DNA of 35,700 nt from an uncultured Candidatus Peribacteria bacterium (GTDB lineage Bacteria; Patescibacteriota; Gracilibacteria; BD1-5; UBA2023): positions 10,973 to 46,672 of the forward strand of contig CAYSEP010000002.1 in the NCBI GenBank assembly GCA_964430065.1. The letters run 5' to 3'. Shown here piece after piece: positions 5,783 through 35,592 of the stretch. The translations under genes were made by a program, and so were the position numbers. The notes under the pieces were generated by a model that saw only the letters and a program-made list of their open reading frames with translations, ran no database searches and was not told the origin of the DNA. Position 1 is the first letter of the stretch, and each line of letters begins with the position of its first letter.

Positions 5783-5817
5783 AAACACCCTGAATCCTTT
5801 ATTCTTAAGCTCATTTC

Positions 5818-6615
5818 ATGTACCCCACGATAGAATTTCTCGGCATCACGGTATATACTTTTGGGACACTTCTCTCTATTGCTTGGCTTTTGTTCTTTGT
5901 TCTCTTGCACCGATTTTCATGGAAAAAATGATTCACGAAACCGATATTTAGCTCTATCGTTCCTTTCACACTTTCTTTGTTTTTTTTCTCGCGGATTTTC
6001 TATATATTTTCTGAATGGGTAGAGGAGAAATACGTCCTCATGGAACTCGCTTATGGGCATATATTCTCTTTTTTAAGACTGTTTTTTATCCCGCAAGACT
6101 ATCACTTTTCTCTCTTCGGAGCGATATTTGGTTTTGGTTTGGTATTTATGATACTCACGAGCAAGAATAAAAAAGAACGCCCTGCATATCTCGATGTTAT
6201 TGCTCATGCATTCCTTTGGAGCGCTCTTCTCGGGTACTTCGCGGCCCTTCTCTGAGGGCAAATCTACGGGATAGCATGGAGCTCCCCAGTATCTCTCATA
6301 TACGACCACAAAAATAGTATCGTCACTGCCCGAAGTGCACTCTTTCCTCTCCCAATCGTCTATATGATACTCTGTGGGGGGATACTTTTCGCCCTTTCGA
6401 AAGTAACAAAACACTGACATCTTCCTGATGGGTACATAGGTTCTCTCGGGCTTGGACTGTTTGGTGTCACTATTTTTCTTTTTGATTTTCTTTCTGGAAA
6501 TAGGAAAGATATATTCTACGATTACTTCTCTCTCGGGATGAACCAGATCGGATGACTCATACTTGTACTCATAGCGGTTCTCGCTATCCTCAGAATTACT
6601 GGCAAAAAAATATAA
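5818..6615 (+). CDS. lgt: Polytopic membrane protein, divergent prolipoprotein diacylglyceryl transferase (Lgt)-like
   Basis: One frame is open from ATG 5818 to TAA 6613-6615, with 4 in-frame TGA and no TAA/TAG (checked triplet by triplet). By eye it is collinear with Lgt, for example ...LLGYFAALL-G-GQIYG where Lgt has G-R-x-G-N-F-x-N-x-E-L-x-G, and ...LFPLPIVYM... where Lgt has P-x-Q-L-Y-E. Several catalytic-motif residues differ. Confidence 0.55.
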
Positions 6616-6618
6616 TCC

Positions 6619-11986: not shown

Positions 11987-13342
11987 ATGCAGTTTCGTGC
12001 CATCTGTTCAAAATGAAATCAAAAACTTACTCTTTCCCTTAGTGCCTCATCAATCGATGAAGCACGAACCATGCTGCACGGACAAGGGTATTCTATTATG
12101 GAAATTCAGGAAGAATGAGTGTCGATAAAAAAAGATGAATCCAATGATAATTTTTTCTATTTCGATGCTATTATTAACGGTCAAGTAAAATCAGGTAAAA
12201 TCCAATCTGTCGATGTTTTTAAAGCATACACCAAGCTCGTAGATGATCTCGGGTATAATATACTCTACATATACACAACCGAGGGGATGAATGAGACACA
12301 GAAAAAAGTGATCACAGCGAAAGTAAAAGATGGATATGTGATGTACAAACAGAGTATGGGTTTCGATATGAGTGAGAAAAAGGAACAAACAGAGCGTGAA
12401 ATCTCGATGGCAGAGATATCTCCTACGGTTCTCAAAGAACTTGCTCATTACAATGCTATTATTGATTCGACTGTAGAAAAAATCCAAAATCTCTTTCTCA
12501 AATACCACAAAACTATCACTCCTGAAAAAAAGAAAGAACTCGAAAATATAGAATCAAATCTTGCTCAAACCAAAGGACTTTCCAATCTCTGAAGAATGAA
12601 AATGATAGTAGAGTGAGCCCTTACGACCATAGGAAAACTTGAGTCAGAGCTTGTAAAATGAGGACTTGATACCGATAAACAGAAACTCATGGATGAGACG
12701 AATGCTCTCCTGAAACAAATCTGATCCAGTGAACGTATAGAAAGTAATGAAACAAAACCATGAGATATAGGTAAGAGTATTTCGAATTTTTTCGAATCCT
12801 TCCAAAAAAAAGATGTATCAAAATCTGAACAAAAAAAGAAGGTGGATACCAATTCGTTTATCTTCTATAAAAATCTTCGAGAACTCAATATCTATAAACA
12901 AAATCTCAATAAAGTTGTTATTGATATCATCAAAGCTATTTTTACTTTCCAATTCTCTCAAGTAAAGCGTCTCCGTCTCAAGAAAAAACTTCTCGAACAG
13001 GATATACAAATTATCGATAACCGTATCCACAATAAAAATATATCCTATACGAAAATAGTAAAATGAAGTCAGTATTATGTAAATATTTTTCTTGAATTTT
13101 TTCAAAGAATTGGTGATATTTTTCTCTATGGAATGGTTATATATACTGTTTTTTATATGTTTCTACGAGCATGAGAGCATCTCGGGTATATCACATTTTC
13201 TACGGATCTTTGATTTTTCCTCTTTCTTGCTATATTTGCAAGTATCGCTTTCTTATTTTCTTTTTTCCGATCCATTCTTTCGCTTTTTATAGGGTGAGGT
13301 TTTTTCCTATTTCTTTTTATTTTTCTTACTATTAATTTTTAG
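11987..13342 (+). CDS. Hypothetical 451-aa protein: two GspF/PilC-N-terminus-like repeats, a long coiled coil, C-terminal TM helices
   Basis: A single frame runs from ATG 11987 to TAG 13340-13342 through about 10 TGA and joins track ORFs 12119..12592 and 12842..13066. The N-terminus has FRAICSKGNQKLTLSLSASSIDEARTMLHGQGYSIMEIQE and FFYFDAIINGQVKSGKIQSVDVFKAYTKLVDDLGYNILYIY. The C-terminus is hydrophobic (IFLYGMVIYTVFYMF..., FFLFLAIFASIAFLF..., FFLFLFIFLTI). Confidence 0.65.
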
Positions 13343-13344
13343 AT

Positions 13345-14538
13345 ATGTATGCGCTTCTTATAGCTATACATGCCGTATTTATTGGGATTGCTCATATTTT
13401 TTCGTATCGGATTTTCGAAGGAGTATTTCTTCTTCTCGGCTGTTTCTTTCTTTTTTATTTTTCCCCACTCTTTTTCCTTGATAAAGAAGAGAAAAAAGAA
13501 GGTGCTTCTTTCTCACTGACTGATATATTTTCAAGCGTCTCTCTCAAAAACTCCTTTCTCATACCGATGGGTTTATTTTATGTAGGACTTTCCCTTCTTC
13601 TTTATTCTCTGTTTGGTACAAAAGAGGGACTACTTTTTATCCATGCGGTGATCGTCATCCTTCTTTATGCAGTTTTTCTTGGATATGGGCTCTTATTTTA
13701 CTGGAAACACGATGTATTCTTCGAAGCTTTACGATTCCACACTCTTTTTACCCTTCTTGGGACCATTCTTCTCATTTTTTCGAATATCCTTTCAGGAATT
13801 TCATATGAGATGCTTCACTTACTTCTCCTTATTCTTGGTATCGGTGCAAGTATATTTCTTCTCACATTTACGAGAAAAGAGGGCTATACTTTCCTTATTA
13901 CTCTTCTGTTTTCCCTCTTTCTCACTTGTATTCTCTCATTTCTTTTGGTATTTCCTAGACCTGAAATCATCACTCTATTTGCTCTGTCACTCGCCATTTC
14001 TTGTATTTTCTTCGACCTTCTTCCGCGCCTCCCCCTCCTAGAAAAATATACTGCCATAATCCGTTATTTTGCTCTCACTATTTGTCTTGTGAGCACTATC
14101 TGACTCATATCTTTCGTTTTTATCGAGTTTTCTACTCTCGGTGTTTTGGCACTTTCGCTGAGTTTCTTCTTCCTCCTTTCTATTCATATACGCTTTACCA
14201 ACTATATTGGCTATATTTTTGCGCTATTTCTCCTCTTTTTTCTCTACTCTGTACTCTTTATCGGACTTCTCGATCCTTCGACACCGATTTCCCTCTTTCT
14301 TTTTATATTTTTCCTTCCTGTACTCCTTCTCTGATCCACCTATATTATCGAAGAGGCACATACGTATGACTTTATCATTCTCCACTACTCGAGTATAGGT
14401 TTTAGTGTAGCGTATTCTCTCTATTCCCTCTTTTTTCTCGGGTGGTGAGGTGATATATTTTTTATCTTATCCTTTACCTTTTTTGGTATTGCACTCCTCT
14501 TATTTCTGAGCTATTTCCGTTTCCGTAAAATTCACTAA
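13345..14538 (+). CDS. Polytopic integral membrane protein of unknown function (397 aa)
   Basis: ATG 13345 is 2 nt after the upstream stop. The frame joins track ORFs 13345..14103 and 14146..14334 through 3 TGA and ends at TAA 14536-14538. It is almost entirely hydrophobic helices rich in Phe, Leu and Ile. Confidence 0.7.
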
Positions 14539-19488: not shown

Positions 19489-22400
19489 TTACTCGACTTC
19501 CATCTCTTCGACGATAAGGGCTGCGGCATCTTCTCGAGAGAGGATCTCCTTATTGATTACCGGAGCATGAGCATCTCATGTTCCTTGTGCTGCATCGAGA
19601 AGCTTGAGAGCCTCACCAAGCGTGATAGCATCATTTGGACGGAATTTTTTCATATCTGGATTGATCCAACCCATGATAACTCAGAATTCGACATATTTCT
19701 GGAACTCAGATCCCCGCATATCCGTGAATGAAGTTTCACCTTCTCACATGTCCTCGAATCCATATGCAAGTGAGAGTACTTTCACGAACTCTGCACGAGT
19801 CATAGGTCTTTTGGGGTCAAATTTCTTAGTATTTTTCACATAACCCTTTTCTATAAGTGTCGTGATGGCATCATGTGATTCAGAATTGGCTATATCGTTT
19901 ACTACGATGGATATGCTTTCCACAGGACTGATCCCCTCCACTGTCTCCGAAGCTTGTGTTTCTCTGTTTGCTTTTTGTTCTCTGAGAATACGCTCGAGAG
20001 CAGTGATGCCGAGAGTCATGTTCTGGTTTTGTAGAGCAGTTTGACCATTTGGATTACTAGAAACGAGAGGACTTACAGCAGTGCTTGCTGATCCACCCCC
20101 ACCACCCCCACCAGCACCAACTGCTGGAGCCGTGACTATGGGTGCTGCGACGATCACATTCACGATACGAGAGACGGGAGTTGCTGTATTTCCGACACTA
20201 TCTGACACATTATAGGTGAGCGTATATGATCCGATAGTTGCTGTAGTCACACTGCCTGACACGGTGACTGATGGAGTGATCGTACCATCGACATTATCAG
20301 TGGCTATAACTCCCATGTCGACGTATGTCGATCACTGGCTTACTGTTGTGGGACTCACTCCCAGGAGAGTGATCACTGGTGCTGTCGTGTCGATGTTCGC
20401 CACGTTCGCCACTGTCGATCCGGTGTTTCCACCAGTCATATCTTGGAAGGTGAAAGTAAATGAACCATTTGTCGTGAATGTATATGTGGGACTTCCACCA
20501 TTATTGGTAATAACAATAGACTCACTTGCTCATGTAAGAGTTGCTGTGACACTACCACTGGTTGTCGAAAGTGTCGAATACGTCACACTTGCCGTCGGAG
20601 AAGTTGTATCAACTACGTTTACGGTACGGTTTACTGATCCAAGATTTCCCGCACCATCGGTGTAACTGTACCCCAGTACGTATGTTCCTATTGAGCCTAT
20701 ATTTACAGAACCGATAGTTGGGGTGGATATAGTCCCACTTCCATCTACATTGTCTGTCCACGAAGCTCCGAGTTCAGTATAACTACTTCCGATTTCTACA
20801 TTCAGTGCTGCAGATCCAAAGAGAGTGATCACTGGTGGTGTGGTATCAGGAGCTGAGAGGACATTTACTGTACGACTCGTCGCACCAGTATTTCCAGAAA
20901 TATCCGCATACTCGTACTCCAGAAGATAACTCCCAATAGTATTTGTATCTACACTTCCTGAGAATGGTGTCATAACCACTCCAGTTCCATCATGAATATC
21001 TGTCCATGATGCTCCACTCTCTGTATAAGTATCTCCTACTACGAGACTCACAGGACTTCATCCTATAGGAGAGAGAACTGGTGCGGTGGTGTCTACGACA
21101 TTCACACTACGGGTTGCTCCGATTCCTACATTTCCAGACAGATCAGCATATTCATATCAGATAGTGTACGTTCCGAGTGTATTCACATCGAGACTTCCAC
21201 TATTGTATCCACTGATCATACCAGTTCCGTTGAACCCATCATCCCACTCTGCTCCATCATCAACAAATGACGAACCATACTCCACATCTACAGAAGAGAC
21301 TCAGAGAAGTGAAATTGTTGGTACTGTCGTATCGACAACATTCACAGTTCGTGTGACTTGTGTTGCCGGGTTTCCACCGGCATCAGTGACATCGTAGGTG
21401 ACGATGTATGTTCCTGTGAGAGCTGTATTTACTGGATTCACAGTATTGATACTAACTGTGATATCTCCATCGATATCATCGATTGCTGTTGCCCCATCAT
21501 CAGTGTAGAGAGAACCCTGTTCTACTGTAATCGGTGAGCTTCCTGAGAGAGTAATCACGGGAGGAGTCAGGTCAGGTCCTGAAAGCACCTGTACTGTTCG
21601 AGTTACACTCCCAGTGTTTCCTGAGCTATCCGCATGGATGTAGTCGAGAAGATATGTACCAGTACTATTCGTATCGACTGTTCCTGAAGATGCTGTCAGG
21701 ATAGTTCCGTAGACACCATCGACATCTGTCCAGTATGCCCCACTCTCTGTATAGGTATCTCCGACTACTACATTCACCGTCGCTGCCCCAGAAAGAGTCA
21801 CGACAGGATCTACAGTATCTTCTACGATAACTGTACGACTCACTCCTGTTCCCATATTCCCAGCCCCATCTGTATACTCATACGATACTATATACGTTCC
21901 GAGTGTTCCTGTATTCACACTTCCACTCGTATATCCACTGATGACACCACTTCCGTCTACATTATCCGTCCATGACGCACCATCATCAACAAATGACGAA
22001 CCATACTCTACATTCACAGTAGCACTTCCTGAGAGTGTGATCACTGGTGGTGTGGTATCATTCACAGTGACAGTGCGGAATCACATACCTACATTTCCTG
22101 CTCCATCAGTATATCGGTACTCTACAAGGTACGATCCTACCGTATTGGTATCTACAGAACCTGTATATGGTACTGCGAGAAATCCTGTTCCATCCACATT
22201 ATCGGTCCATGATGCCCCACTCTCTGTATAACTATCCCCCTGAGTGAGAGTGATGAAGCTTCCATCGACGGGAGTCACGATCGGAGCAGTGTTGTCTACG
22301 ACATTCACTGTACGAGTTACACCAGAGCTATTCCCTGCTGCATCTACCTTCAGATACTCCAGAATATAGGTTCCGAGTGCTCCAGTATTTACACTTCCAG

Positions 22401-25395
22401 AAATAGCGAATGATCCTGTCTGTCCATATATACCCGCAAACGTATCTCCCGTTCAATCAATATCGTCACTCCATGATGCTCCGAGTTCCGTATATCCTGA
22501 CTGGTAGAGTATATTCATACTTGCTGCACCAGAGAGAGTCACTACTGGAGGAGTTGTATCAACAGGAGCTATATACTGTATTTCAACTCATGTTCCATAA
22601 TACTTATATAAAGGTATGTTTCCTCCAGTATATACTAATGAACCTATTGAAACGGTAAACTTATCTCATGCTGTCCATGATGGTTGAGGACTTATCTCCA
22701 TGAGGAGTTCATAATCCTTACTTCCTCATCCAGCTGCTAAGTATTGTGGTATTAACTCCATGTAAGCAAGCTCCCATCAAACTGTTGTATTTGTATTCTG
22801 GTCGATATTTATAGGAAGTGTGGTTCCGAGAGATCAACAAGGTGATAGTGATCATGATGCTCTCAAACACCCAGATCCGCTAAAAATAGCGCTTCAGGTA
22901 AATTCTATTTGCATGTATACATCAGATAGGGTAACTCATGACCACGTATCGTCGTTTTGTATATGTATAGTTGCTATTGGAGAATTCGTATCTAATTGCC
23001 CACTCGGAGTAATGCTTAGGGCCGGTGCTCAAGGAGCTAAAATAAATTGAAGAGATGGTCATTGAAGATCATCAGTTACTACTACAGAGGCACTTCAGTA
23101 GTATTTTATAGCATCTACCTGAGGTCCACTTGTCTTCAGGCTGATAGTTTCTCCATAATTCCCTGATCCGTAAGTGATATCAGCAAAGATCGTGTAATAC
23201 CGAGTTTCTCCTGGTAGTATTATATCATTCATTCCACTAAAAGTGAGGGTTTGTCCTGATATCGATACAACTGCTCATATTTCCACGCCAGAATAAAGTT
23301 CTTTTAGTTTGATTCATGTTCACACATTGATAATATTTTCCAGATTTACGGTTCATGAGTTTGCCAATTCAATCTTACGAATAATAAGAGGGTCAAGTCA
23401 TGTTGTCACAGCAAATTGGCCAATTAATGCTCCACTACTCATATCTTGGAAAATAGTTTCTTGCGTCGCTCACGAAAAAATAAGAGATAATGCACTGACT
23501 ATGTTTATTGTTCTTGTAGCAATATTGACATTACCGGCCATATCAACCTTTTTGTACTCCAGGGCATAGTTTCCCACGGCTCATGTATTGACGGTTCCAC
23601 TGACAGTAAATGATCATGCACTTCAGTAGCTTCATGTGAGAGTGTCTCATGTACCATCAGCATTGTCTGTCCATGATGCACCAGCATCTACGTAGGGGTA
23701 TCCATACTCGCCACTCACTGTAGATGAACCAGAAAGGGAAACTATAGGGGGCGTCGTGTCTGGAAGAACGCCATAGGTTGAAATCATAGTTGCACTTCCT
23801 ACTCATACATAGCTTTGAACTTGTGTATATGCTCAGACAGTGTACTCGAGATCTGTAAGAGAAGTTTGCACAACATCACCACCGATCCATAGGGGAGCGT
23901 TGTCTATATACACTTCATATTCTTCAAAACCACTATTTGGTGCAAGTATTGCTGTATTATTCAAAAGAGTTGAATTTACTATATCAAAAATGTAAGTCCC
24001 ACCATTTTCTGTAATTGTCTGACCAGTTGTCGTACCAATACCACCACAAGATGAACTAGAACCAAGATCTCGTAAACAAATACTACCAGTGAAAGTAAAT
24101 CCTCATGTCATAGATACTTGGAGTGTGACCCCTGAGACAGTGAGTCAGGTACTACTATCCACGTTTGATACTCGTATTTTTCCTATACGCGTACCGAGGG
24201 CAAGAGAGTTTGCAGTTAGATTCACTGAAGGGGGCACTATACTCACTGTATAAAGCTTCATATTCCCACTGAACATACTCTCATCTACCGCGAGAGGGCT
24301 ACTATCACCATCTTTCACGATACTTACCATTCCAGAGTTGGTAGTGAGTTGGAGGGTTTGACCGTAGTATGGGTCGAGTGTTGCTACATTTGGAAGAGTG
24401 ATCTTGAAGTTCGTCGTAGTATAGCTTGGTATGATGAAATTCACCCCAGAGAAGCTGATCGTCTGTCATGATATCGTTCCAGTTGTGAGCAATGTATTTC
24501 CCGATACTTCTCTGAGCTCTACTCCTGTAGATGATGCTGCGATGTCTGAAAGAGTGCTCGTTCCTATATTTGTGATATCAATATTTTCCAGGCGGATAGC
24601 ATCGATACCAGCACTGAGACCAAAGCGTCCTGTTTCCTGGTTTGTAATACTGGAAATCTTGTTATTCGATGGCGGAGCAACGGTTGCATTTCTCAGGTTT
24701 GCTGGACTTACGACATCGACTCGTCGAGTGGCTCATGACCCATTTCCTGCATTATCTACCTTCATATAGTCTATATAGTAGGCTCATACACTTCCTGTGT
24801 TTACGCTTCCAGAAATCGCGAACGACCCTGGTACTCCATAAATTCCTACAAATGTTTCTCCTGTTCCATCGGCATTATCTGTCCATGAAGCTCCTGGTTC
24901 TGTATAGATGCCACCAAGTGCGACTGACATGTTACCACCAGAGAGAGTTACTACTGGAGCCTCTGTATCTAGAGGGGGGAGTGTCGTGATCGTGAAAGAT
25001 CCTCATGAGACGATGTTGATAGGATCTCATGTGGACACGCTCACTCCGCTGAGGGTAACTATCGCCGTACCATCGACATAGTTTGAGCCGTCATCTTCCA
25101 TAACGGTATATATATAGGTAAATCCTGTCCCACTTCCGAGATCAGTCAGAGTATCATCCACTATATCTACCGTTCCGGGTTGGTCGATACTGATGGTTGC
25201 TCCTGGAGCAAGAGCTTCGTTGGTCTCTATACTGATTGTAAGGGATCATGTGCCAGCAGGATCACTTGAGTAGGTGATCGCCGCATCGGGCGTACCAGCA
25301 AACGCCACGTTAGCGAATGGAGAAAAAAGAGAAAACACGAACGCTGTGAGCGTCACGAGACTGATCCCTTTACGGAAAGAAGTAGAATTATACAT
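19489..25395 (-). CDS. Giant (1,968 aa) cell-surface protein: signal peptide, 11 DUF5011-like Ig repeats, two S-layer-like cassettes, poly-Gly linker, C-terminal SLH-like repeats
   Basis: I checked every line-aligned triplet from 25395 down to 19489 and found no TAA/TAG, only 42 in-frame TGA (hand count). The N-terminus is [33 protein letters not shown]. Repeats have the form [38 protein letters not shown]...[15 protein letters not shown]...RTVNVV. The C-terminus has [16 protein letters not shown] and [16 protein letters not shown] (SLH-like). Confidence 0.85.
20150..22560 (-). repeat. Tandem array of about 80-aa (about 240-nt) DUF5011-like Ig-domain coding repeats: 9 copies with one unrelated Ig-like insert near 20395-20610
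   Basis: Each unit starts with D-T-T-x-P-x-(I/V)-(T/S)-L and ends with R-T-V-(N/T/Q)-V. Two further dispersed copies lie at about 23500-23765 and about 24720-24985. Confidence 0.75.
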
Positions 25396-27607: not shown

Positions 27608-29119
27608 CTAGACGCCACGATAGGAGAGCGCTTCAAGGACATGGCGAACTTCGACATCTGGCGAACGATCGATATCGGCGATCGTACGAGCAACACGAAG
27701 TATCCTATAGTAGACACGAGTCGAGAGGTGGAGTCGCTCTGTCGAAGATATGGCGATCTTTCTTGCTTCTTCGGAGATTTTGGCGAAGGTGTCGATGTCG
27801 GTATTCGACATTTCTGCATTTCTGTGAAGTCTGGTTCCGTGGAATCTCCCTCTCTGGATCCCACGAGTTTCTTCTACGATTTCTGCGTAGTCTCGAGTCG
27901 TCTTTTCTCACTTCTTCCCTTCGAGTTCGCCCGGTTTCACCCGAGGAACCTGGATAAAAATATCGATACGATCGAGGATCGGACCTGAGAGGCGTCCACG
28001 ATACCGTTCGATCGCATGAGGACTACAGATGCAGGATTTCTCAGGATCTCCCATATAACCACAAGGACAGGGGTTCATAGCACCCACCAGAGAGAATCGA
28101 CTCGGATAACGACAACTCATATTCACACGGTTGATCGTGATCTCGCCGTCTTCGAGCGGCTGACGAAGGGTCTCGAGGATATGTTTGTCGAACTCGAGGA
28201 ACTCATCGAGAAAGAGCACTCACTTATGAGCGAGGGATATCTCTCCTGGTCGTGAATCTCGGCCCCCTCAGATAATCGATGCCTCGCTTGCCGTGTGGTG
28301 GATGATACGAAATGGGCGTTCTCGTACGATCGGCATATCCCGAGTCAGGAGCCCTGCGACGGAGTATATCTTCGAGAGCTCGATCTGCTCTTCGATATCC
28401 ATAGAGGGAAGTATACCAGCGAGAGCCTTCGCAAGCATCGTCTTTCCAGAACCAGGAGGACCCTGCATGAGGATATTGTGCCCGCCCGCTGCTGCGATGA
28501 GGAGAGCACGCTTCGCTTGTTCCTGACCATGGATCGAAGAGAAATCGACTATCATACGGGTTCGAGGAATACTTTCTATATCGAGTTTTTCTGCTGGTTT
28601 CATAAGCACCGTTCCCTCTAGGATATCGACGACTTCTGAGAGTCTCTCGACGGCGATGACATCGATCCCGGGAATGACGGATGCTTCTTCTCGGTTCGCT
28701 ATCGGGAGAAATACTCGCTTCATACCGATCTCTCGAGCGAGTATGGTAGCAGGGAGAGCTCACTGGACTCAGCGTATCACTCCGTCGAGTGCGAGTTCTC
28801 CGAGAAAAAGAGAACTTCCGAGTATCTCCTCGTCGAAGGCGATCTCTTTCGCGAGGATGCCGAGAGCGATCGGGAGATCGTAGATCGGTCACTTCTTACG
28901 AAGGTCTGCTGGTGCGAGATTCACGGTGATGCGTGCTCCGCCAGGGAAGCTATATCCAGAGTTCTTCACAGCAGCTCGGACACGCTCGCGAGACTCCTGT
29001 ACAGCAGTATCTCCGAGTCCGACGACCGTAAACTGTCCCATTCCTGTGATGACATCAACCTCGACTTCGACGAGCTGACCAGAGATCCCTGCGAGGGAGG
29101 TAGAAAAAAGTTTTTGCAT
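27608..29119 (-). CDS. comM: Mg-chelatase-like AAA+ protein ComM/YifB
   Basis: Four track fragments (27608.., 27908.., 28268.., 28889..) share one frame and are joined by TGA only (gaps checked). Motifs: [56 protein letters not shown] and NPCPCGY. ATG is at 29119 ([11 protein letters not shown]). Confidence 0.88.
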
Positions 29120-29339
29120 ACGAATATGGTACAAAAATTTCTAACAAATTTCTAAACTTTCGGACATATTTTTCGAAATTGTATTGCAACTTCTGTTCTT
29201 TCATGCAAAAATATATGAATTGTCTGGTAAAGTTCTTTTTTCCGCATTTCTCTCGTCTTGTAAAGTCAAAAGCAAGTACAATATTTGGTTTCATACCAGA
29301 TTTCTGATACTATGACGAGAGTTAGCCGTATTCTCTCTC

Positions 29340-32300
29340 ATGATTTTTCGTATTTTCGCATCTGTACTTCTCTTCCTCATTTCCGAGGAAACCTTTGCCA
29401 TACAAACACGAGTGGCGACGAATAGTGAGCAAGAGAAATGAGTATTTTCTGCACTCTGGGATACTATCCTCTATGTTACGGAAAACATCATCAATATCAT
29501 CATCTTTGTCCTCATCGCGTGGATGCTTCTGAAAGTTATCCGTCTTGCCTATGAGGTCCTCATGGCGGGGCGCCTGATCTATATGAAGGTGACGCTTCCC
29601 CGTGCCGACTCGAAGCTCGACAAAGAACGCGAAACCAAAAAAGACTTCAAGGAAAAGGTCGGTATCATGTCTGTCTTCTATAAGTCTGTCCATAATCTCA
29701 CTCAGTCGAGCGCGCTCGATACGATCATGAATGTGATATTTCGCCATGCGAAGATCTCTCTCGAGCTTATGTATCATGACGGACAAGTGCATTTCTACGC
29801 TGTCGGATACAAAGAGCACCTCTCGCTCGTCGTCCAGCAGATCACCTCGAACTATCCCGATGCGGAAGTGAAACTGATCGACCGAAAGGATTTTCCTGAG
29901 ATCAAACCACTTGGATTCACCCTTCAGGCGGCTTCTATCAGCAAAGACAATGACGATGTCTACCCGATAAAGACCTATAAATACTTCGAAGATGATCCAC
30001 TTTCGACTTTCACGAATAATTTCTGATCACTCAAGAAAACTGACGTCGCCTCGATCCAGCTCGTCGTGAAGCCACTCGGCCACTCATGGAACCGTAAAGC
30101 GAAAAAAGCAGCAGGTCTCGTCGCAAAAGGAGAATATAAAAAAGGAATCAAATCTGGACTTCTCGTCTCGATTTTTAAGGGTATCACCGCGCCGATAGCA
30201 TGGCTTTTCTTTCGTTTCCTAAAAAATGAGGAAACCGGAAGTAATGCTCCAGGAGCGACAGGAGGCGACTCATATAAGATATTTAACCAAGCTGAGACAG
30301 AAGCGCAAAAAATGGTCGGAGAGTCTGCGGGTCAGCCAGGATTCCGTGCGAGTATGCGTATCCTCGTCTCATCTGATACGAGTGCATCTGCCAGAAGCGC
30401 ACTCCAGAACCTGGTCGCTGCGACTTCGATATTCACGGATGAGTATAATAACCGACTCGGTAACCCTCAGATGATCGAAGATCCGCTGCGGTTTATCTTC
30501 ACTCCACTTCGCTACTTCGCGTACCGATTCCGACTTGTCTGAGTCATGCAGGGAATCAGTAATTTCTCTTGTGACGAACTCTCGACACTCTACCACTTTC
30601 CTGATATCAACTACAATAAGTCTCCCATTATCAGCTGGCTCGAATACAAAATGCTCTCACCTCCGTCGAATCTCCGATTTCCGAAAGAGCCACTTATCAT
30701 GAAGGACTATAAGCGTGATGCAAAAGGAAACATCTTCACCGAAGATGGATCACTCCTTCGGGTGGATAAAAATAAAAACCTCGAAAGAAGTGCCGACAAG
30801 GACCTCATCCTTCTCGATGGTACTATCGTCCCTGTAGCAAAAGAAGGGGAAAATATCGGAAAGCCACTCGATACCGGAAAGACTCCAATCCAGATCGACG
30901 AACAGCGCAAGCTCCAAGGATTTCCTCTCTATAAAGATGGAGTATTGATGGGATGGAACGAATACCGAAATAATAAAACTCCGATTTATTTCTCGAAAAA
31001 AGATCGTGGACGACATCACTATATCATAGGAAAGTCAGGATGAGGAAAGTCAGTATTTATCGGCTATCTTGCCCGTCAAGACCTCTGGAATGGTGAGGGT
31101 CTCTGTGTCATCGATCCGCATGGCGACCTCGTCGAAGATATCGTCGCCTTCACTCCGAAAGAGCGCGCGAAAGATATGATCATCTTCGATCCTGCCGACT
31201 ATGAGCGCCCAATGGGACTGAATATGCTCGATCTCATCGCGACGGATCCGAGTCTGCGTATGATCGAGAAAGATCGTGCGGCACTCGATGCAACCTCAAT
31301 CTTTATCAAGATGTATGGAGATGAGATATTTGGACCCCGTATCCAACACTACTTCCGAAATGGGTGTCTGACTCTCATGGATGACGAAGAAGAAGGGGGA
31401 ACACTTATCGATGTTCCACGACTTTTCGTCGATGAGGCCTTCATGAAGTATAAGACATCGAAGATCAAGAATGTGATGGTAAAAGCTTTCTGGGAACATG
31501 AATATGCTCAGACGGGAGATCGTGAGAAGCAGGAGATGATCCCATTTTTCTCAGCGAAATTCGGTCCATTTATTACCAATACGACGATGCGAAATATCAT
31601 CGGTCAGACGAAATCCGCCTTCAACATCCGACAGGTGATGGACGAACAAAAAGTCCTCATGGTGAATCTCTCGAAAGGAAAGATCGGAGATCTTAATGCA
31701 CAACTTCTGGGTCTCATCATGGTCTCGAAGATCAATATGGCGGCGATGAGTCGTGCAGACATGCGAGAAGAAGACCGAAGAGATTTCTATCTCTATGTCG
31801 ATGAGTTCCAGAATTTCGCTACTGACACGTTCGGAGAAATCCTCTCAGAAGCTCGTAAGTACCGACTGGCCCTTATCATGGCTCACCAGTTCATCGCACA
31901 GATCGGAGGATCAGGAGATAAGCAAGGGAAATGAGGGAAACCGTCGATCAAAGACGCTGTCTTCGGAAATGCGGGGACGATCATGTCGTTCAAGGTCGGT
32001 GCTGAAGATGCCGAGTATCTCGAAAAGGAATATGCACCATCCCTTTCTCAGCAAGATATCATCGGTATCGCGAACTTCACGACCTACTGTAAGCTCAATA
32101 TCGATAACGCGACGACTCGACCGTTTGACCTGAAAACCATCTGGGACAACACGTATAAAAACGCGGAAGTCAGCAAAATCATAAAAGAGTATTCTCGAAA
32201 AATGTATGGTCGCAAAAAAGAATATGTCGATATGGAGATCGAAGCCCGTATGGGAATCGTACGAGAAGAGGACAAAGAGCCTCCAGCTTGAGATACAACC

Positions 32301-32357
32301 ACTACTCCAACGATCACACCAGATACTCCTCCAGCTTCGACAGAATCTTCACAATAA
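29340..32357 (+). CDS. Type IV secretion coupling-protein-like ATPase (VirD4/TraG/TraD family) with an N-terminal extension of about 560 aa
   Basis: The frame runs from ATG 29340 to TAA 32355-32357 and joins 5 track ORFs through TGA only. The N-terminus has a signal-like segment plus a TM helix (IINIIIFVLIAWMLL). Walker A is HHYIIGKSG-TGA-GKS (TGA at 31041-31043), followed by CVIDPHGDL. Walker B is FYLYVDEFQNF, then LALIMAHQFIAQI. The tail is Thr/Pro-rich. Confidence 0.8.
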
Positions 32358-32372
32358 CTCATTCCTTCCACC

Positions 32373-33575
32373 ATGCTTCACCGCATTCTTCCCATCATCG
32401 TCCTTCTCCTTGTCATACTTGATACGACAGTGCTTTTTGGATTCGGAGGGTCTGGGCCACTTGCAGGTTTTGTGATTTCGATGAAGCCCTTTGCTTACGG
32501 TATAGTCCTCATCGGACTTCCTCTCCTCTACTTTATCGTCTATAAGGCGTATATCGGACCTGTACAGCGACTCAATCAGAGCATCGCGAAGTTCATGACG
32601 GGGATCGACGAAGAGCCCAACCTCGAAGCGAATAGCTGGAGCAAAGGAATGAACTATATTATTAATTTCTTCATAAAAAGTCTCCAAATTCTGAAAGTCT
32701 TCAAACAAGAACTCCGTGATGGTCGAAAACTCCGCTCAGAAGTCGAGATCGCCTCAGAAATCCAGAAGCGAGTGATCGCGAGTGAGACGAGTATCGTCCC
32801 ATCTCTGGAGATCGCCATGGCGAGTTGTCCCGCATCTGAAGTGGGAGGGGATTCACTCGATATCATCCCTGGAAAAAATGGAAACTACTATATCTATGTC
32901 GGTGATGTGACATGACACGGGGTTCCGAGTGGATTCGTCATGATGATGGTGAATGCTCTGGTATCAGCATTTGTCGTATCGGAAGAGAGTAGTGCTCGAG
33001 TCCTCTCCGAGACGAACCGCATCCTGAAGCCTCGTATCAAGCAAAATATGATGATGACCTGTGTCATGCTTCGCTGGAATGAACCACACAAGATGCTCTA
33101 CTATACAGGAGGCTGACATGAGTATCTTCTCGTCTATAAAGCAAAGGAGAATAAAGTCTACAAAATAAAATCAGGTTGAGTCGCCCTTGGTATGGTTCGA
33201 GATTCTTCGAAAGCGATGATAGAGCAACAGATCCTCTTCGAGAAAGAAGATATCATCATCCTCTATACTGACGGCATCACGGAAGCTCGCTACCGCAGTG
33301 AACAAAATTGACTTCTTTTCGGAATCGATAGAATAGTCGAGTCCATAATGAAAGTGGAGGTAAAAACGGCAGAAAACATATTCCGTCATCTCACTATAGA
33401 TCTCTCCTCGTTCATGGGATACAAGCACAAACAATACGACGATATCACTCTCTTCGTCGCTCGAAATGTGGGCTCCTGAGGTATCACTCTCTCCTCTATT
33501 CCCGACGCGATAGATCCTGCGAACATTACCGAATGGAACTGGTGAAAAAAACTCGCAGAACCAAAAATACTCTAA
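32373..33575 (+). CDS. Membrane-anchored PP2C/SpoIIE-family serine phosphatase with a HAMP-like linker
   Basis: It has two N-terminal TM helices and a HAMP-like YIGPVQRLNQSIAKFMTG. PPM motifs are EIASEIQKRV, SEVGGDSLDI, YVGDVT-TGA-HGVPSGFVM and ILYTDGITEA. There are 6 in-frame TGA. The start lies 15 nt after the upstream stop. Confidence 0.8.
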
Positions 33576-33587
33576 AAAATTTCTCTC

Positions 33588-35555
33588 ATGGCGGTCCCTT
33601 CTCTCGCAGAACTCATCACGAAAAACTACACCGGAGATGTCGAATGACTCGAATCTCGGGGAGTGAATTTCGTCGCGTCTTCGTGAGAAACCATGGTAGC
33701 GTCTCTAGCAGAGCCAGAAGACATCACTCCACAAATAGTGACTCTTCCTTCGCCAACTTCGACACCTTCGCCAGTCACTGTCGATCTCGAGGATCCGACT
33801 CGTAAACTCTCGAAAGAAGAAGCAGAAGAGCTCAAAAAAACGGAAAAAGAATATAAAGAAGCTCTCGCCTTCATAAAGGATATGATCGCTCCTGCGATGA
33901 TGCGTATCGATGCGACGAAGCTCCAGATCGGGGATACCTATATCCGCACGATATTTACCTATGCATACCCCGATGTACTCGAAGGGAACTGGCTCTCACC
34001 GCTCATAAACTGGGATGTGAAGTTCGATGTATCGATGTTCATCTACCCTATCGACTCTTCTCGTGTCATGAAGTATCTGAGAAAGCGTCTCACGCAACTT
34101 CGCTCTCAGTACGCGATCAACCGTGAGAAATGACTCATCAGCGATCCGCACCTCGACGCACAGATGCAAGATGTCGAAGAACTTCAGGTTTCACTGACTC
34201 GTGGTCAGGAGAAATACTTCCACTTCTCGCTCTACGTCACGACGTATGCAGAAAGCGAAGAAGAGATGAAGCGCCTCTCGAATACGCTCGATGTCATGCT
34301 TGCAGGGCGTAATATCCTCACGAAACAATCATTTCTCCGTTCCGAACAAGGATTCGTCGCGACAGGTCCGTTTGCTCGAGACGAGGTGAATGTCTTTCGA
34401 AATATATCCACAAAAGGTCTTTCGACGACTTTCCCTTTCAGTTCCAATAGCCTTTCGCAGGATGATGGTATATTCTATGGAATCAATACTCATAATAATT
34501 CGCTTATCATCTTCGATAGATTCAAAACAGAAAATGCGAATATGTGTGTCTTCGCGAAATCTGGATGAGGAAAGTCATTTGCTGTGAAGCTCGAGATCCT
34601 CCGCGCCCTCATGCTCGGGACGGATGTCATCGTCCTCGATCCAGAGAATGAATATCGTGCTCTCGTCGATACTGTCGGAGGAACATATCTGAATATCAAT
34701 CTAAACTCTGATGAGCGGATCAATCCATTTGACCTTCCACGAGGACTCAAAGACACAGAAGCACACCCAGGAGATCTCCTGCGCGGTGCGGTCGTGAATA
34801 TGCTCGGACTCCTCCATCTTATGCTCGGAGTTATCACTCCTTCCGAAGAAGCGCTTCTCGAACGAGGACTGATCACTACCTACTCACTGAAGGGGATCAC
34901 CATGGAAGATGACTCTGCAGAAGGGAAAGAAATCCCACTCATGAAAGACCTTCTCTCTGTCCTGGAGACGATGGACTGAGCTCGCGGGCTTGTCGAGCGT
35001 CTCGACAAATATGTCACAGGAATATTTGCTGGAGTTTTCTCGGAACATACGAATGTGAACCTGAAAGATGGACTCGTCGTCTTCTCGGTCCGAGATCTCG
35101 ATGATATCCTCCGACCGATCGCTATGTATATCCTCCTTGGCTACGTGTGGAATATCGCTCGTTCCTCTGAGAAAAAACGTATGCTCGTCGTGGATGAAGC
35201 GTGGAATATCATGCAGTACGAAGACTCTGCGAAGTTCCTCTTCGGTCTCGTGAAACGTGCTCGTAAATACGGACTCGGTGTCACGACGATCACACAGGAT
35301 GTCGAAGACTTCATGACGAACCAGTATGGGAAAGCGATCGTGACCAACTCCTCGATCCAACTCCTCTTGAAGCAGTCTCCTGCCTCGATCGATGTCCTCC
35401 AGGATGTCTTCAAGCTCACGGAACAAGAGAAATATATCCTCCTGAATGCCTGAGTCGGTACAGGACTCTTCTTCGCCTGAGGAGAACATGTCGGTATCCA
35501 GATCCTTGCTTCGTACTTCGAAGAGAAGATCATCACCACGAAGCCGAATGTGTAA
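33588..35555 (+). CDS. VirB4/TrbE/TraC-like type IV secretion ATPase
   Basis: The frame joins track ORFs 33693.., 34164.., 34584.. and 35055.. through TGA. Walker A is VFAKSG-TGA-GKSFAVK (TGA at 34566-34568), followed by VIVLDPENEY. Walker B is MLVVDEAWNIM, then GVTTITQDVEDF. The start is either 33588 or 33693. Confidence 0.82.
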
Positions 35556-35562
35556 ACTATAG

Positions 35563-35592
35563 AAAAATCCCCCGCAATCGCAGGGGATTTTT
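35563..35592. terminator. Hairpin terminator after the VirB4-like gene; it may also serve the converging minus-strand ORF
   Basis: AAAAATCCCCCGC, loop AATC, GCAGGGGATTTTT (one mismatch), flanked by A and T runs. It begins 8 nt after the stop at 35553-35555. Confidence 0.7.

What the first reader, a model, noticed from the sequence alone, without database searches (positions are those of the whole stretch)
29340..35555. Minimal T4SS-like module: VirD4-like and VirB4-like ATPases bracketing a membrane HAMP-PP2C phosphatase
Three tightly spaced co-directional genes have gaps of 15 and 12 nt and end in a strong terminator. They encode a 1,005-aa coupling-protein-like ATPase, a two-TM HAMP-PP2C (SpoIIE-type) phosphatase and a VirB4-like ATPase. 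The window shows no relaxase, pilin, VirB6/8/9/10-like channel gene, integrase or flanking repeat, so it does not look like a conventional conjugative element.

In known T4SS and Gram-positive conjugation loci, the two ATPases are separated by channel genes, not by a signalling phosphatase. The architecture suggests phosphorylation-controlled gating of a reduced translocation or DNA-uptake machine. The host is an organism with an S-layer envelope, competence genes and presumably an episymbiotic or predatory lifestyle. This is the best candidate for an undescribed system here. The module may continue upstream, but not beyond the terminator at 35563-35592.
Basis: partly seen in the sequence, partly recalled or inferred. 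Interest (0 to 1): 0.75.

Follow-up and report, generated by a model that had tools for sequence, protein, structure and literature searches.

The report
Phosphatase embedded in T4SS ATPase operon
In a UGA-recoded Gracilibacteria-type genome, the two motor ATPases of the Patescibacteria type IV secretion system are co-transcribed with a membrane-anchored PP2C phosphatase whose link to the VirB4 ATPase is conserved across many species, pointing to an undescribed phospho-switch on a machine thought to mediate host interaction or DNA traffic.

Summary
Three co-directional genes sit at 29340-32357, 32373-33575 and 33588-35555, with gaps of 15 and 12 nt and a perfect hairpin at 35563-35592. They encode a membrane-anchored DUF8128 + VirD4-like coupling ATPase, a two-TM SpoIIE-type PP2C with intact catalytic aspartates, and a Gram-positive-type VirB4 (CD1110 family).

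The phosphatase is not a chance neighbour. Among GTDB species representatives, VirB4 follows the PP2C in 41/42 loci at ≥53% PP2C identity and 18/22 at 44-52%. The coupling ATPase is adjacent only in the closer group (42/44). Standard-code Peregrinibacteria homologs lack both ATPases and have STAS and RsbW-like genes nearby.

The module is not a minimal T4SS. Where unlinked, the coupling ATPase heads an operon with three VirB2-like pilin genes. Both ATPase genes share a dedicated promoter element (41/41 occurrences).

The window has no relaxase, integrase or flanking repeats, and its context is housekeeping and competence genes.

My reading is the ATPase core of the known, dispersed Patescibacteria T4SS with a previously undescribed, conserved PP2C regulator. 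Its substrate is unknown. I rate it a new variant of a known kind.

The parts
29259..29313 (+). Conserved composite promoter element: TGTAAAG-N3-AAA box, a TTTGG -35-like element, and an extended -10 TGATACTAT. It ends 27 nt before the gA start codon.
   Evidence: Alignment of ComM-gA intergenic regions. The composite regex hits 41 times in 1.46 Mb of loci plus window, on both strands: 36 upstream of the coupling-ATPase gene, 5 upstream of VirB4 in pair-only genomes, and 0 elsewhere. The box is unique in the window at 0 mismatches.
29340..32357 (+). gA: 1,005-aa membrane-anchored ATPase. It has an N-terminal hydrophobic anchor, a DUF8128 region (about residues 70-545), and a VirD4/TrwB-like coupling-protein ATPase (Walker A GKSGGGKS at 564, Walker B YLYVDE at 817). 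Six in-frame UGA codons.
   Evidence: PF26449 (DUF8128) is precomputed on all homologs. PDB sequence search finds TrwB at 8e-4. The ATPase half is 86-97% identical across species, median 92%. The fold search of a homolog model lists only VirB4/TrwK among its top 13 hits, at low TM-scores.
32373..33575 (+). gB: 400-aa phosphatase. It has a two-TM hairpin with a loop of about 12 residues, a HAMP-like helix-connector-helix, a SpoIIE-type PP2C domain with invariant metal-binding Asp160, 178, 300, 356 and 357, and an invariant C-terminal ITEWNW tail.
33588..35555 (+). gC: 655-aa VirB4-like ATPase of the Gram-positive (CD1110 / MPF-FATA) type. Its P-loop is KSGGGKS at about residue 324 and its Walker B is MLVVDE at 532. 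A conserved N-terminal peptide L-x-ELI-x-KNYTGD-x-EG is followed by a variable S/T/P-rich linker. It lacks roughly the first 170 positions of the CD1110 profile.
   Evidence: (4ag5 VirB4 C-terminal domain, 1.4e-40).
35563..35592 (.). Palindromic G+C-rich hairpin with A-run and T-run flanks. It is an intrinsic-terminator-like site that closes the operon.
27608..29134 (-). Context, not part of the operon: ComM (Mg-chelatase-like competence helicase), divergently transcribed. This neighbourhood is conserved in the trio lineage.
   Evidence: Mg_chelatase 2.6e-91. Conserved upstream of gA in 39 loci.

Best explanation
The trio is the cytoplasmic-membrane ATPase core of the chromosomal Patescibacteria-type T4SS, which derives from the monoderm MPF-FATA conjugation machinery. 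In this Gracilibacteria lineage it is arranged as one operon: a dedicated promoter (29259-29313), the coupling-protein-like ATPase gA, the PP2C phosphatase gB, the VirB4 ATPase gC, and a terminator. The rest of the apparatus (VirB2-like pilins, and the TrsD and VirB3-like parts reported in the literature) is encoded elsewhere. gB descends from RsbU/SiaA-type partner-switch phosphatases. It has almost no extracytoplasmic loop, so it is anchored beside the machine by a TM hairpin and a HAMP-like linker. I infer that it removes a phosphate from a Ser or Thr, either on a T4SS component or on a small partner protein, and so switches assembly or activity of the VirB4/coupling-ATPase motor in response to a membrane or host-contact signal. 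Shown here: gene identities, intact catalytic motifs, operon structure, deep conservation of the PP2C-VirB4 adjacency, a shared promoter type for the two ATPase genes, association of the coupling ATPase with T4SS pilins in relatives, and chromosomal non-mobile context. Inferred: that the phosphatase acts on the machine, what its substrate is, the direction of control, and the cargo (host-directed proteins or DNA).
For: Identity. Operon: gaps of 15 and 12 nt, one conserved promoter and one terminator. Conserved linkage: VirB4 lies within 600 nt downstream of the PP2C in 41/42 testable loci at >=53% PP2C identity and 18/22 at 44-52%. The flanks differ between groups: ComM plus coupling ATPase in one, SSB in the other, and pilin-RadA-L31 in a third. 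Protein features that track the linkage: the C-terminal [IV]TEWNW tail is present in 54/58 VirB4-adjacent PP2Cs and absent from the unlinked Peregrinibacteria homologs. The VirB4 N-terminal peptide is conserved in all groups. Strong constraint: the coupling-ATPase domain has median 92% identity and VirB4 82%, against 75% for ComM in the same genomes. Genuine T4SS: T4SS_pilin genes directly follow the coupling ATPase in L048 (1.1e-15) and in L083-L085 (three each). Both ATPase genes carry the same composite promoter element even when unlinked (41/41 occurrences). Ancestry of gB: the closest structures are SiaA, the Rv1364c RsbU domain, SpoIIE, RssB and RsbX. The Peregrinibacteria homolog has a canonical HAMP motif, with STAS and RsbW-like genes about 9 kb away. 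Literature: Patescibacteria VirB4 forms a clade nested in MPF-FATA, is chromosomal and mostly lacks a relaxase (PMC12102498). The T4SS is essential for epibiotic growth in a Saccharibacterium (PMC10633639).
Against: No kinase (Hanks motif), FHA or STAS gene was found in the window or in the roughly 20-kb loci of UGA-recoded relatives, so the phospho-substrate is unidentified. In pair-only genomes the shared promoter element lies between PP2C and VirB4, so there the PP2C is adjacent to the ATPase but not under its promoter. A few loci lack VirB4 downstream: L043 has an IS-type transposase there, and L053, L056, L059 and L067 also lack it. The HAMP is not detectable by profile. The coupling-protein assignment of gA rests on modest scores (43 bits, with NCBIfam equivalogs far below their cut-offs), and the fold search lists only VirB4 (TrwK) chains among its significant hits and no TrwB/VirD4. 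The synteny survey was PP2C-centred, so the fraction of VirB4 genes without a PP2C was not measured.
Confidence: 0.55

Rival explanations
1. The machine is specifically a DNA-import or DNA-exchange device, like the archaeal Ced system or the H. pylori ComB T4SS. It would feed the ComEC/ComF/ComM transformation pathway of a nucleotide-auxotrophic episymbiont, and the PP2C would switch uptake on. This rival concerns cargo and direction, not the identity of the parts.
For: In every lineage the module sits beside ssDNA-processing or transformation genes. ComM is divergent in the trio group (39 loci). RadA lies between the coupling ATPase and the PP2C in L046, L048, L050 and L080. SSB is divergent from the PP2C in at least 17 pair-only loci. 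The coupling ATPase-pilin operon lies a few kb from ComEC-Lgt-RNase Y in L083 and L085, and the same triplet is in the window at 4268-8124. There are weak NCBIfam hits to CedB (1.3e-13) and CedD. A coupling-protein-like ATPase is retained without a relaxase. PMC12102498 notes comF, recG and radA near the T4SS in class ABY1.
Against: Neighbourhood with ComM, RadA and SSB is only guilt by association, and these are also general repair or replication genes. Type IV pili plus ComEC already account for DNA uptake in CPR bacteria (PMC8080830; PMC10633639). In Saccharibacteria the T4SS is essential for epibiotic growth, and its function there is unresolved (DNA or protein delivery, export of proteins, or another role). 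The CedB and CedD scores are far below their cut-offs.
Confidence: 0.3
2. The PP2C is functionally unrelated to the ATPases: a housekeeping signalling phosphatase that happens to be a stable neighbour and was trapped in the operon when the coupling-ATPase gene moved in.
For: In pair-only genomes VirB4 has its own promoter downstream of the PP2C. No partner or substrate was found nearby. The family descends from general RsbU-type regulators. CPR genomes are compact, so tight spacing is common.
Against: The adjacency persists from 95% down to 44% PP2C identity while both flanks are rearranged. In the trio lineage the gene lies inside the operon with 15- and 12-nt gaps. The C-terminal ITEWNW tail and the degenerate HAMP are specific to the VirB4-linked orthologs. 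Unlinked Peregrinibacteria homologs look different and sit in a different context.
Confidence: 0.15
3. The genes are the decayed remnant of an integrated conjugative element, or the ATPases are FtsK/HerA-type DNA-processing or anti-phage defence ATPases rather than T4SS parts.
For: There are weak secondary hits to DUF87/HerA and to PADLOC mad8, HerA and DndH. No channel genes are in the window.
Against: The best HMMs are VirB4 (CD1110, above its cut-off) and T4SS-DNA_transf/TrwB_AAD_bind (above gathering scores). The closest solved structure is a VirB4 C-terminal domain at 1.4e-40. T4SS pilin genes are adjacent in relatives. There is no integrase, relaxase, tRNA or flanking repeat. Synteny with housekeeping genes is conserved across dozens of species, and the ATPases are 82-92% identical, which is the opposite of decay. 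The PP2C has no PADLOC hit.
Confidence: 0.04

Closest known systems
Patescibacteria (CPR) chromosomal T4SS (Quinonero-Coronel et al. 2025, PMC12102498; Wang et al. 2023, PMC10633639)
   Same: A VirB4 related to monoderm MPF-FATA systems, a chromosomal location, no relaxase, and VirB2-like pilin arrays. VirD4-like coupling-protein homologs are abundant in these genomes. In Gracilibacteria the other components are dispersed. The window's gC and gA fit this description.
   Different: Neither paper mentions a phosphatase. Only 148 of 5,713 coupling-protein homologs were reported near virB4. Here the coupling ATPase, the PP2C and VirB4 form one operon, and the PP2C-VirB4 pair is conserved across the class. 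I did not place gC in their VirB4 tree.
Gram-positive conjugative T4SS ATPases (C. difficile CTn2 CD1110 VirB4-like and CD1115 VirD4-like; Thermoanaerobacter VirB4, PDB 4ag5)
   Same: gC scores above the curated cut-off of the CD1110 family and matches 4ag5 at 1.4e-40. gA's best NCBIfam hit is CD1115.
   Different: There is no relaxase, no VirB6, VirB8 or VirB1-type genes nearby, and no mobile-element context. gC lacks about the first 170 profile positions. gA carries a roughly 475-aa DUF8128 region that these proteins do not have, and it scores far below the CD1115 cut-off (34.9 against 250 bits).
Partner-switch PP2C phosphatases: RsbU, SpoIIE, P. aeruginosa SiaA, Chlamydia RsbU, Bordetella BtrU (BtrU/V/W control type III secretion; the last two from my own knowledge)
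   Same: The SpoIIE-type PP2C fold with all metal-binding aspartates. SiaA is the best structural match (Foldseek 1.8e-13). The layout is membrane anchor, HAMP(-like) linker, then PP2C. The Peregrinibacteria homolog has STAS and RsbW-like genes in its neighbourhood.
   Different: No STAS or kinase partner was found near the module in the VirB4-linked lineages. There is no sensory ectodomain (the loop is about 12 residues). The HAMP is degenerate. The conserved ITEWNW tail is unique to this group. The conserved genomic partner is a T4SS ATPase rather than a sigma-factor module.
Threonine phosphorylation pathway of the P. aeruginosa H1-T6SS (PpkA kinase, PppA PP2C phosphatase, Fha1; from my own knowledge; the PppA structure 6jkv appears at rank 25)
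   Same: A PP2C phosphatase encoded inside a secretion-system gene cluster that switches the machine post-translationally. This is the closest functional analogy to what is proposed here.
   Different: It is a different secretion system and a different PP2C subfamily (soluble PppA against membrane-anchored SpoIIE-type). No kinase or FHA protein was found here. Regulation by gB has not been demonstrated.
DNA-import T4SS-like systems: archaeal Ced (CedB, CedD) and H. pylori ComB
   Same: A VirB4/HerA-like ATPase used without a relaxase, chromosomal location, and association with competence or recombination genes.
   Different: The CedB and CedD scores are far below their cut-offs (50.5 against 700 and 27.5 against 600 bits). 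No ComB or Ced membrane components were identified. Neither system has a PP2C.

Membership tests
VirB4 family T4SS ATPase (NCBIfam NF045971 conju_CD1110; Pfam P-loop_TraG / AAA_10) | Whole-protein HMM score above the curated cut-off | tested here: met
   gC scores 344.9 bits against a cut-off of 325, covering residues 81-637 and profile positions 172-734 of 752. P-loop_TraG scores 86.1 against 25.8 and AAA_10 41.4 against 27.5.
VirB4 family T4SS ATPase | Intact Walker A and Walker B motifs and similarity to a solved VirB4 C-terminal domain | tested here: met
   KSGGGKS at about residue 324 and MLVVDE at 532. PDB 4ag5 matches at 1.4e-40 over residues 290-650.
VirB4 family T4SS ATPase | Full-length N-terminal domain | tested here: not met
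   The alignment starts at profile position 172. The first 80 residues are a conserved 20-aa peptide plus a variable S/T/P linker. The literature reports separately encoded TrsD-like N-domain homologs in CPR bacteria. None was sought in this genome.
VirB4 family T4SS ATPase | Encoded with other T4SS membrane components (VirB3, VirB6, VirB8 or VirB2) | tested here: not met
   None in the window. In relatives, T4SS_pilin genes lie next to the coupling ATPase.
Type IV coupling protein (VirD4/TrwB/TraD) | Pfam T4SS-DNA_transf and TrwB_AAD_bind above their gathering scores | tested here: met
   gA scores 43.1 against 20.1 bits (residues 550-897) and 24.8 against 20.5 (residues 746-855).
Type IV coupling protein (VirD4/TrwB/TraD) | Equivalog-level membership (NCBIfam CD1115, TraD) | tested here: not met
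   34.9 against 250, 31.6 against 366 and 19.7 against 647 bits.
Type IV coupling protein (VirD4/TrwB/TraD) | N-terminal membrane anchor followed directly by the nucleotide-binding and all-alpha domains; fold matches TrwB | tested here: inconclusive
   An anchor is present (hydrophobic segment 41-76), but a roughly 475-aa DUF8128 region intervenes. The ATPase half of the model has pLDDT below 45. The top 13 Foldseek hits are VirB4/TrwK, at TM-scores of only 0.2-0.27. hhalign finds no similarity between the N-halves of gA and gC. The PDB sequence match to TrwB is 8e-4, over the P-loop region only.
Type IV coupling protein (VirD4/TrwB/TraD) | Works with a relaxase or relaxosome | tested here: not met
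   No relaxase in the window. Relaxases are rare in Patescibacteria.
SpoIIE-type PP2C (PPM) phosphatase, PF07228 | HMM above its cut-off, conserved metal-binding aspartates, and a PP2C fold | tested here: met
   137.6 against 25 bits. D160, D178, D300, D356 and D357 are invariant in 28 sequences. Foldseek matches SiaA at 1.8e-13, and also Rv1364c and SpoIIE.
HAMP domain | Profile match, or helix - ~14-residue connector - helix directly after TM2 | tested here: inconclusive
   There is no Pfam HAMP hit at E<=10. The model shows a helix to residue 74, a connector at 75-88 and a helix at 89-135, with pLDDT 81-88. The distant homolog L081 has a DEIGVLAHFFN motif.
Partner-switching module (RsbU/SpoIIE phosphatase + STAS antagonist + RsbW-type kinase) | STAS and kinase partners encoded with, or near, the phosphatase | tested here: not met
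   phmmer with SpoIIAA, RsbV and SpoIIAB probes finds hits only in Peregrinibacteria loci (L072, L074, L079, L081). There are none in the window or in loci of VirB4-linked lineages. Whole genomes could not be searched with these tools.
Secretion-system threonine phosphorylation pathway (kinase + FHA + PP2C) | Hanks-type kinase and FHA protein in the cluster | tested here: not met
   No Hanks motif in 1.46 Mb of loci plus window. No FHA or Pkinase hit on gA, gB or gC.
Integrative conjugative element or plasmid | Relaxase, integrase, att repeats or tRNA target, and patchy distribution | tested here: not met
   Synteny with ComM, bPH and TrxB is conserved across species.
Patescibacteria-clade T4SS (PMC12102498) | VirB4 falls in the monophyletic Patescibacteria clade nested in MPF-FATA | not tested
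   No phylogeny was built. This is indirectly consistent: the best family is the MPF-FATA-type CD1110, and the hosts are Gracilibacteria-type genomes.
Known anti-phage defence systems (PADLOC) | System-specific HMM hits on the components | tested here: not met
   Only generic P-loop hits (mad8, HerA, DndH), and none for the PP2C.

The most novel reading that the evidence does not exclude
gB is a dedicated, machine-bound phosphatase that directly dephosphorylates a T4SS component. Candidates are the conserved N-terminal LxELIxKNYTGDxEG peptide of VirB4 or the DUF8128 region of the coupling ATPase, with the invariant ITEWNW tail of gB serving as the docking element. This would make it the first type IV secretion system gated post-translationally by Ser/Thr phosphorylation, analogous to the T6SS threonine phosphorylation pathway. 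It would couple host contact to firing of the apparatus in episymbiotic or predatory Gracilibacteria and Absconditabacteria.
Probability: 0.2. Interest if true: 0.75.

Novelty: new variant of a known kind. Interest (0 to 1): 0.55.

Why it matters
The Patescibacteria T4SS is one of the few machines shown to be essential for the epibiotic lifestyle (in a Saccharibacterium), yet its cargo and control are unknown. A phosphatase gene locked next to VirB4 across a whole class, and inside the ATPase operon in one lineage, gives a concrete and testable handle on how the machine is switched. Tests could include phosphoproteomics, phosphatase-dead alleles and pull-downs with the ITEWNW tail or the VirB4 N-peptide. 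No Ser/Thr-phosphatase control of a T4SS turned up in the literature searched here. The shared promoter element offers a way to define the T4SS regulon in complete Gracilibacteria genomes and so find the divergent missing channel components. The recurrent neighbourhood with ComM, RadA, SSB and ComEC raises the testable possibility that the system handles DNA.

Tried and rejected
1. Table-11 ORF calling gave only fragments, so all gene calls were redone under code 25.

2. Pfam HAMP on the gB linker gave no hit even at E<=10.

3. The local Pfam copy did not report DUF8128 on gA, although PF26449 is precomputed on all homologs.

Homologs P0005 (73% identical) and P0124 were used as proxies.

5. 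I tested the idea that DUF8128 equals the VirB4 N-terminal domain. Foldseek suggested it, but hhalign of the gA N-half against the gC N-half gave nothing. The ATPase half of the model is unreliable. It stays a weak hint only.

6. I searched the window for a T4SS pilin gene with ten pilin probes and found none.

7. The conserved ~310-aa gene after VirB4 in about 22 relatives is not the T4SS pilin. Its N-terminus looks like a PilX or minor type IV pilin, and it is absent from the window's nearest relatives.

8. A metagenome-wide scan with the promoter element, meant to define a regulon, gave 18 hits. Only one was real (L094, a near-identical relative), so it yielded no regulon information.

9. 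A search for a kinase or STAS partner near the module found nothing in the VirB4-linked lineages.

10. The promoter box does not recur before competence genes in the window.

11. PADLOC gave no defence-system match.

12. Strict restriction of the linkage to UGA-recoded lineages is not supported. Seven VirB4-linked loci have no in-frame UGA in the PP2C gene.

13. Literature searches for DUF8128, for Patescibacteria with T4SS, phosphatase and VirD4, and for T4SS with PP2C and VirB4 gave no description of this arrangement.

Full report
OBSERVATION. Under the standard bacterial code the stated region contains only fragments. Allowing UGA as a sense codon raises the summed length of ORFs of at least 150 aa in the window from 6,408 to 23,246 aa.

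UGA encodes glycine, so the code is 25. Homologs that public pipelines translated with UGA = Trp show W at invariant PP2C glycines (GGD, GHG, TDG). At the window's UGA positions, homolog columns are mostly G. One UGA lies inside each Walker A motif (KSGGGKS).

The intergenic gaps are 15 and 12 nt. A perfect 13-pair hairpin with A/T-run flanks lies at 35563-35592. A 1,071-aa antisense ORF (30219-33434, minus strand) is an artefact of having only two stop codons. It has no family support, whereas the plus-strand genes do.

IDENTITY OF THE THREE PROTEINS.

gC is a bona fide VirB4 of the Gram-positive type. It scores 344.9 bits on NCBIfam conju_CD1110 (cut-off 325) and hits P-loop_TraG and AAA_10. 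It matches the solved Thermoanaerobacter VirB4 C-terminal domain at 1.4e-40. It lacks about the first 170 profile positions. In their place is a conserved N-terminal peptide (L-x-ELI-x-KNYTGD-x-EG) followed by a variable S/T/P-rich linker.

gA has an N-terminal hydrophobic anchor, a region of about 475 aa that carries Pfam DUF8128 (PF26449) in all homologs, and a C-terminal ATPase. The ATPase passes the gathering scores of T4SS-DNA_transf and TrwB_AAD_bind but is far below the NCBIfam equivalog cut-offs. Its only solved sequence relative is TrwB, at 8e-4. An AlphaFold model of a homolog is reasonable for the N-half (pLDDT about 80) and poor for the ATPase half. The top 13 Foldseek hits are full-length VirB4/TrwK, but at TM-scores of only 0.2-0.27. 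Profile-profile comparison of the gA and gC N-halves shows nothing. I therefore call gA coupling-protein-like, with an unexplained N-terminal domain.

gB is a SpoIIE-type PP2C (6.4e-40) with all metal-binding aspartates invariant. Its closest solved relatives are partner-switch phosphatases: SiaA, the Rv1364c RsbU domain, SpoIIE, RssB and RsbX. It has two TM helices joined by a loop of about 12 residues, so it has no sensory ectodomain. Pfam finds no HAMP. The model of a 73%-identical homolog shows the HAMP topology of helix, 14-residue connector and helix. It ends in an invariant ITEWNW motif.

CONTEXT IN THE WINDOW. Pfam on nearly all large ORFs (UvrA, GlyA and the partial SufC were named by eye only) gives this gene list:
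- an SLH S-layer-type protein
- RNase Y, Lgt and ComEC
- GlyA (by eye) and an S41 peptidase
- two unknown AT-rich membrane proteins
- PepA and a ComF-like phosphoribosyltransferase
- UvrA (by eye)
- a 1,968-aa SLH-anchored protein with 11 Ig-like repeats
- TrxB, a bPH_2 protein and a TsaB-like protein (by eye)
- ComM, transcribed divergently from gA

There is no relaxase, integrase, T4SS pilin or channel gene, tRNA, Rfam hit or flanking repeat. The locus is chromosomal and not mobile.

IS THE PHOSPHATASE JUST A NEIGHBOUR? No. The PP2C has more than 120 homolog clusters at 57-85% identity, all Gracilibacteria-type. Three sampled contigs all showed DUF8128-T4CP, then PP2C, then VirB4. A scan of GTDB species representatives with the PP2C alignment returned 79 loci. 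I analysed them by tblastn under code 25.

| PP2C identity to gB | VirB4 within 600 nt downstream | Coupling ATPase immediately upstream |
|---|---|---|
| ≥53% | 41/42 testable loci | 42/44 (2 more about 3 kb away) |
| 44-52% | 18/22 | 0/20 adjacent (2 about 3 kb away, 18 absent within 10 kb) |
| <44% (standard-code Peregrinibacteria) | 1/9 | 0/9 |

The flanks differ between groups:
- In the first group, ComM lies divergently upstream.
- In at least 17 loci of the second group, SSB lies divergently upstream.
- In an intermediate group (L046, L048, L050, L080), the order is T4CP, T4SS_pilin, RadA, L31, PP2C, VirB4.

So the PP2C-VirB4 pair is the conserved unit, and bracketing by the coupling ATPase is a derived state of the window's lineage. 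Exceptions include a locus with an IS-type transposase where VirB4 should be (L043).

Protein features track the linkage. The [IV]TEWNW tail is present in 54/58 VirB4-adjacent PP2Cs and absent from the unlinked Peregrinibacteria homologs. This comparison is phylogenetically confounded.

The ATPases are under unusually strong constraint. Median identity to the window is 92% for the gA ATPase half and 82% for gC, against 75% for ComM and 67% for the PP2C in the same genomes.

IT IS NOT A MINIMAL T4SS. In genomes where the coupling ATPase is unlinked (L083-L085), it heads an operon with three T4SS_pilin (PF18895) genes. This operon often lies a few kb from ComEC-Lgt-RNase Y, and the same triplet is in the window. 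The published survey of 3,035 Patescibacteria genomes found a VirB4 clade nested in MPF-FATA, abundant coupling-protein homologs (only 148 near virB4), VirB2-like pilin arrays and almost no relaxases. In Gracilibacteria it found TrsD and VirB3 homologs away from virB4 and no recognisable VirB6. The trio is therefore the ATPase core of a dispersed apparatus that is already known in outline. That paper, its held supplements, the Saccharibacteria Tn-seq paper and the two Gracilibacteria/Absconditabacteria papers I consulted do not mention a phosphatase in this context. Targeted literature searches found none either.

A SHARED PROMOTER. Aligning the ComM-gA intergenic regions revealed a conserved composite element. 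In the window it is at 29259-29313: TGTAAAGTCAAAAGCAAGTACAATATTTGGTTTCATACCAGATTTCTGATACTAT. It consists of a TGTAAAG-N3-AAA box, a -35-like TTTGG and an extended -10.

A regex for the composite matches 41 times in 1.46 Mb on both strands. Of these, 36 are directly upstream of the coupling-ATPase gene and 5 are directly upstream of VirB4 in pair-only genomes. None is elsewhere. The VirB4 cases are independent of the alignment from which the motif was derived.

The two ATPase genes therefore share a dedicated promoter type even when they are unlinked, which supports their belonging to one machine. It also shows that in pair-only genomes the PP2C lies upstream of, and not under, that promoter. 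This tempers the operon argument outside the trio lineage. A metagenome scan with the element found only one true match, a near-identical relative, so no regulon could be defined.

ORIGIN AND LIKELY MODE OF ACTION OF THE PHOSPHATASE. In Peregrinibacteria the homologous PP2C has a canonical HAMP motif, and a STAS protein and an RsbW-like kinase are encoded about 9 kb away. This points to descent from RsbU-type partner-switch phosphatases. In the VirB4-linked lineages no STAS, RsbW-like or Hanks-type kinase gene occurs in the window or in the roughly 20-kb loci. Whole genomes could not be searched here.

The most likely mechanism is therefore an inference. I propose a catalytically competent PP2C, tethered by its TM hairpin next to the inner-membrane ATPase complex. 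It would dephosphorylate either a T4SS component or a small partner and so control assembly or firing. The closest functional analogy is the PpkA/PppA/Fha pathway of the T6SS. The closest relatives by descent are RsbU, SiaA and SpoIIE.

The cargo is open. The recurrent neighbourhood with ComM, RadA, SSB and ComEC, the retained coupling-type ATPase and the absence of a relaxase are compatible with DNA handling, as in Ced or ComB. However, this is guilt by association. In Saccharibacteria the homologous system is essential for epibiotic growth and has been discussed as a DNA or protein delivery device.

VERDICT. The T4SS identity and the non-fortuitous phosphatase are right. The 'minimal module' reading and the idea that bracketing is the conserved feature are not. 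The T4SS itself is known. The new element is the class-wide PP2C-VirB4 coupling, its incorporation into a single ATPase operon here, and the shared promoter. I rate this a new variant of a known kind, of moderate-to-good interest, with the substrate and the effect of the phosphatase undetermined.

Noticed in passing
whole window; e.g. 30219-33434 (-): The genome uses genetic code 25 (UGA = Gly). With only two stop codons, long spurious antisense ORFs appear, such as a 1,071-aa ORF opposite gA and gB. Tools that translate with table 11, including the structure tool's input check, do not recognise the real proteins.
   Followed up: yes
window 19489-25395 (-) and 796-3852 (-): There are two large SLH-domain envelope proteins. 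One is a 1,968-aa protein with 11 Bact_surface_Ig-like repeats, a HYR domain and a C-terminal SLH. The other is a 1,018-aa SLH protein. A relative has a 3,301-aa Ig-like protein at the equivalent position (L001). They are probably S-layer or adhesin proteins for host attachment.
   Followed up: partly
window 11987-13342 (+) and 13345-14538 (+): Two adjacent genes in an AT-rich stretch (GC 0.30-0.35, against about 0.44 elsewhere) encode a 451-aa protein and a 397-aa polytopic membrane protein with no Pfam hit even at a relaxed threshold. By eye, the N-terminus of the first resembles the N-terminal repeat of PilC/GspF platform proteins. This was not verified.
   Followed up: partly
window 4268-8124 (+); L083 19828-22820; L085 15991-20444: The RNase Y-Lgt-ComEC triplet of the window recurs a few kb from the T4CP + 3x T4SS_pilin operon in genomes where the coupling ATPase is unlinked from PP2C-VirB4. 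This hints at an ancestral neighbourhood of the competence channel and T4SS genes.
   Followed up: partly
L001 13190-14128, L003 13196-14122 and about 20 further loci: In one sub-lineage a ~310-aa protein directly follows VirB4. Its N-terminus (RGSAxLxxLIxxxLL) looks like PilX or a minor type IV pilin. It is absent from the window's nearest relatives, and the window ends 108 nt after the terminator.
   Followed up: partly
L081 94-875 (-) and 9716-10855 (+); also L072, L074, L079: Standard-code Peregrinibacteria carry a HAMP-PP2C homolog without ATPase neighbours. A STAS protein and an RsbW-like kinase gene are adjacent to each other about 9 kb away, which looks like a classical partner-switch set.
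   Followed up: partly
L002 (GCA_018457335.1, JAGYHI010000028.1): This 11.6-kb contig is an inverted duplication: T4CP-PP2C-VirB4 head-to-head with VirB4-PP2C-T4CP. It is most likely an assembly artefact. L021 and L032 come from the two ends of one contig, which suggests the same problem.
   Followed up: no
L043 11872-12549 (+): An IS1595/ISXO2-like transposase (identified by eye) sits just downstream of the PP2C, where VirB4 is expected. This is one of the few loci that break the PP2C-VirB4 adjacency.
   Followed up: partly
L047-L076 (pair-only loci), about 3-5 kb upstream of the PP2C: A roughly 700-aa membrane protein that by eye looks like a CHASE2-adenylate/guanylate cyclase, plus a ~450-aa membrane protein, are conserved upstream of SSB-PP2C-VirB4 in at least 12 loci. 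It may be another signalling input or simply conserved synteny.
   Followed up: no
L094 (ERZ724527 contig, 1,623 nt): This metagenome contig has ComM 99.6% and the gA N-terminus 95% identical to the window, with an almost identical promoter element (1 mismatch in 55 nt). It is probably the same or a sister species. The GTDB genome CAYVAG01 (L004) is the closest species representative, with the PP2C 93-95% identical.
   Followed up: no
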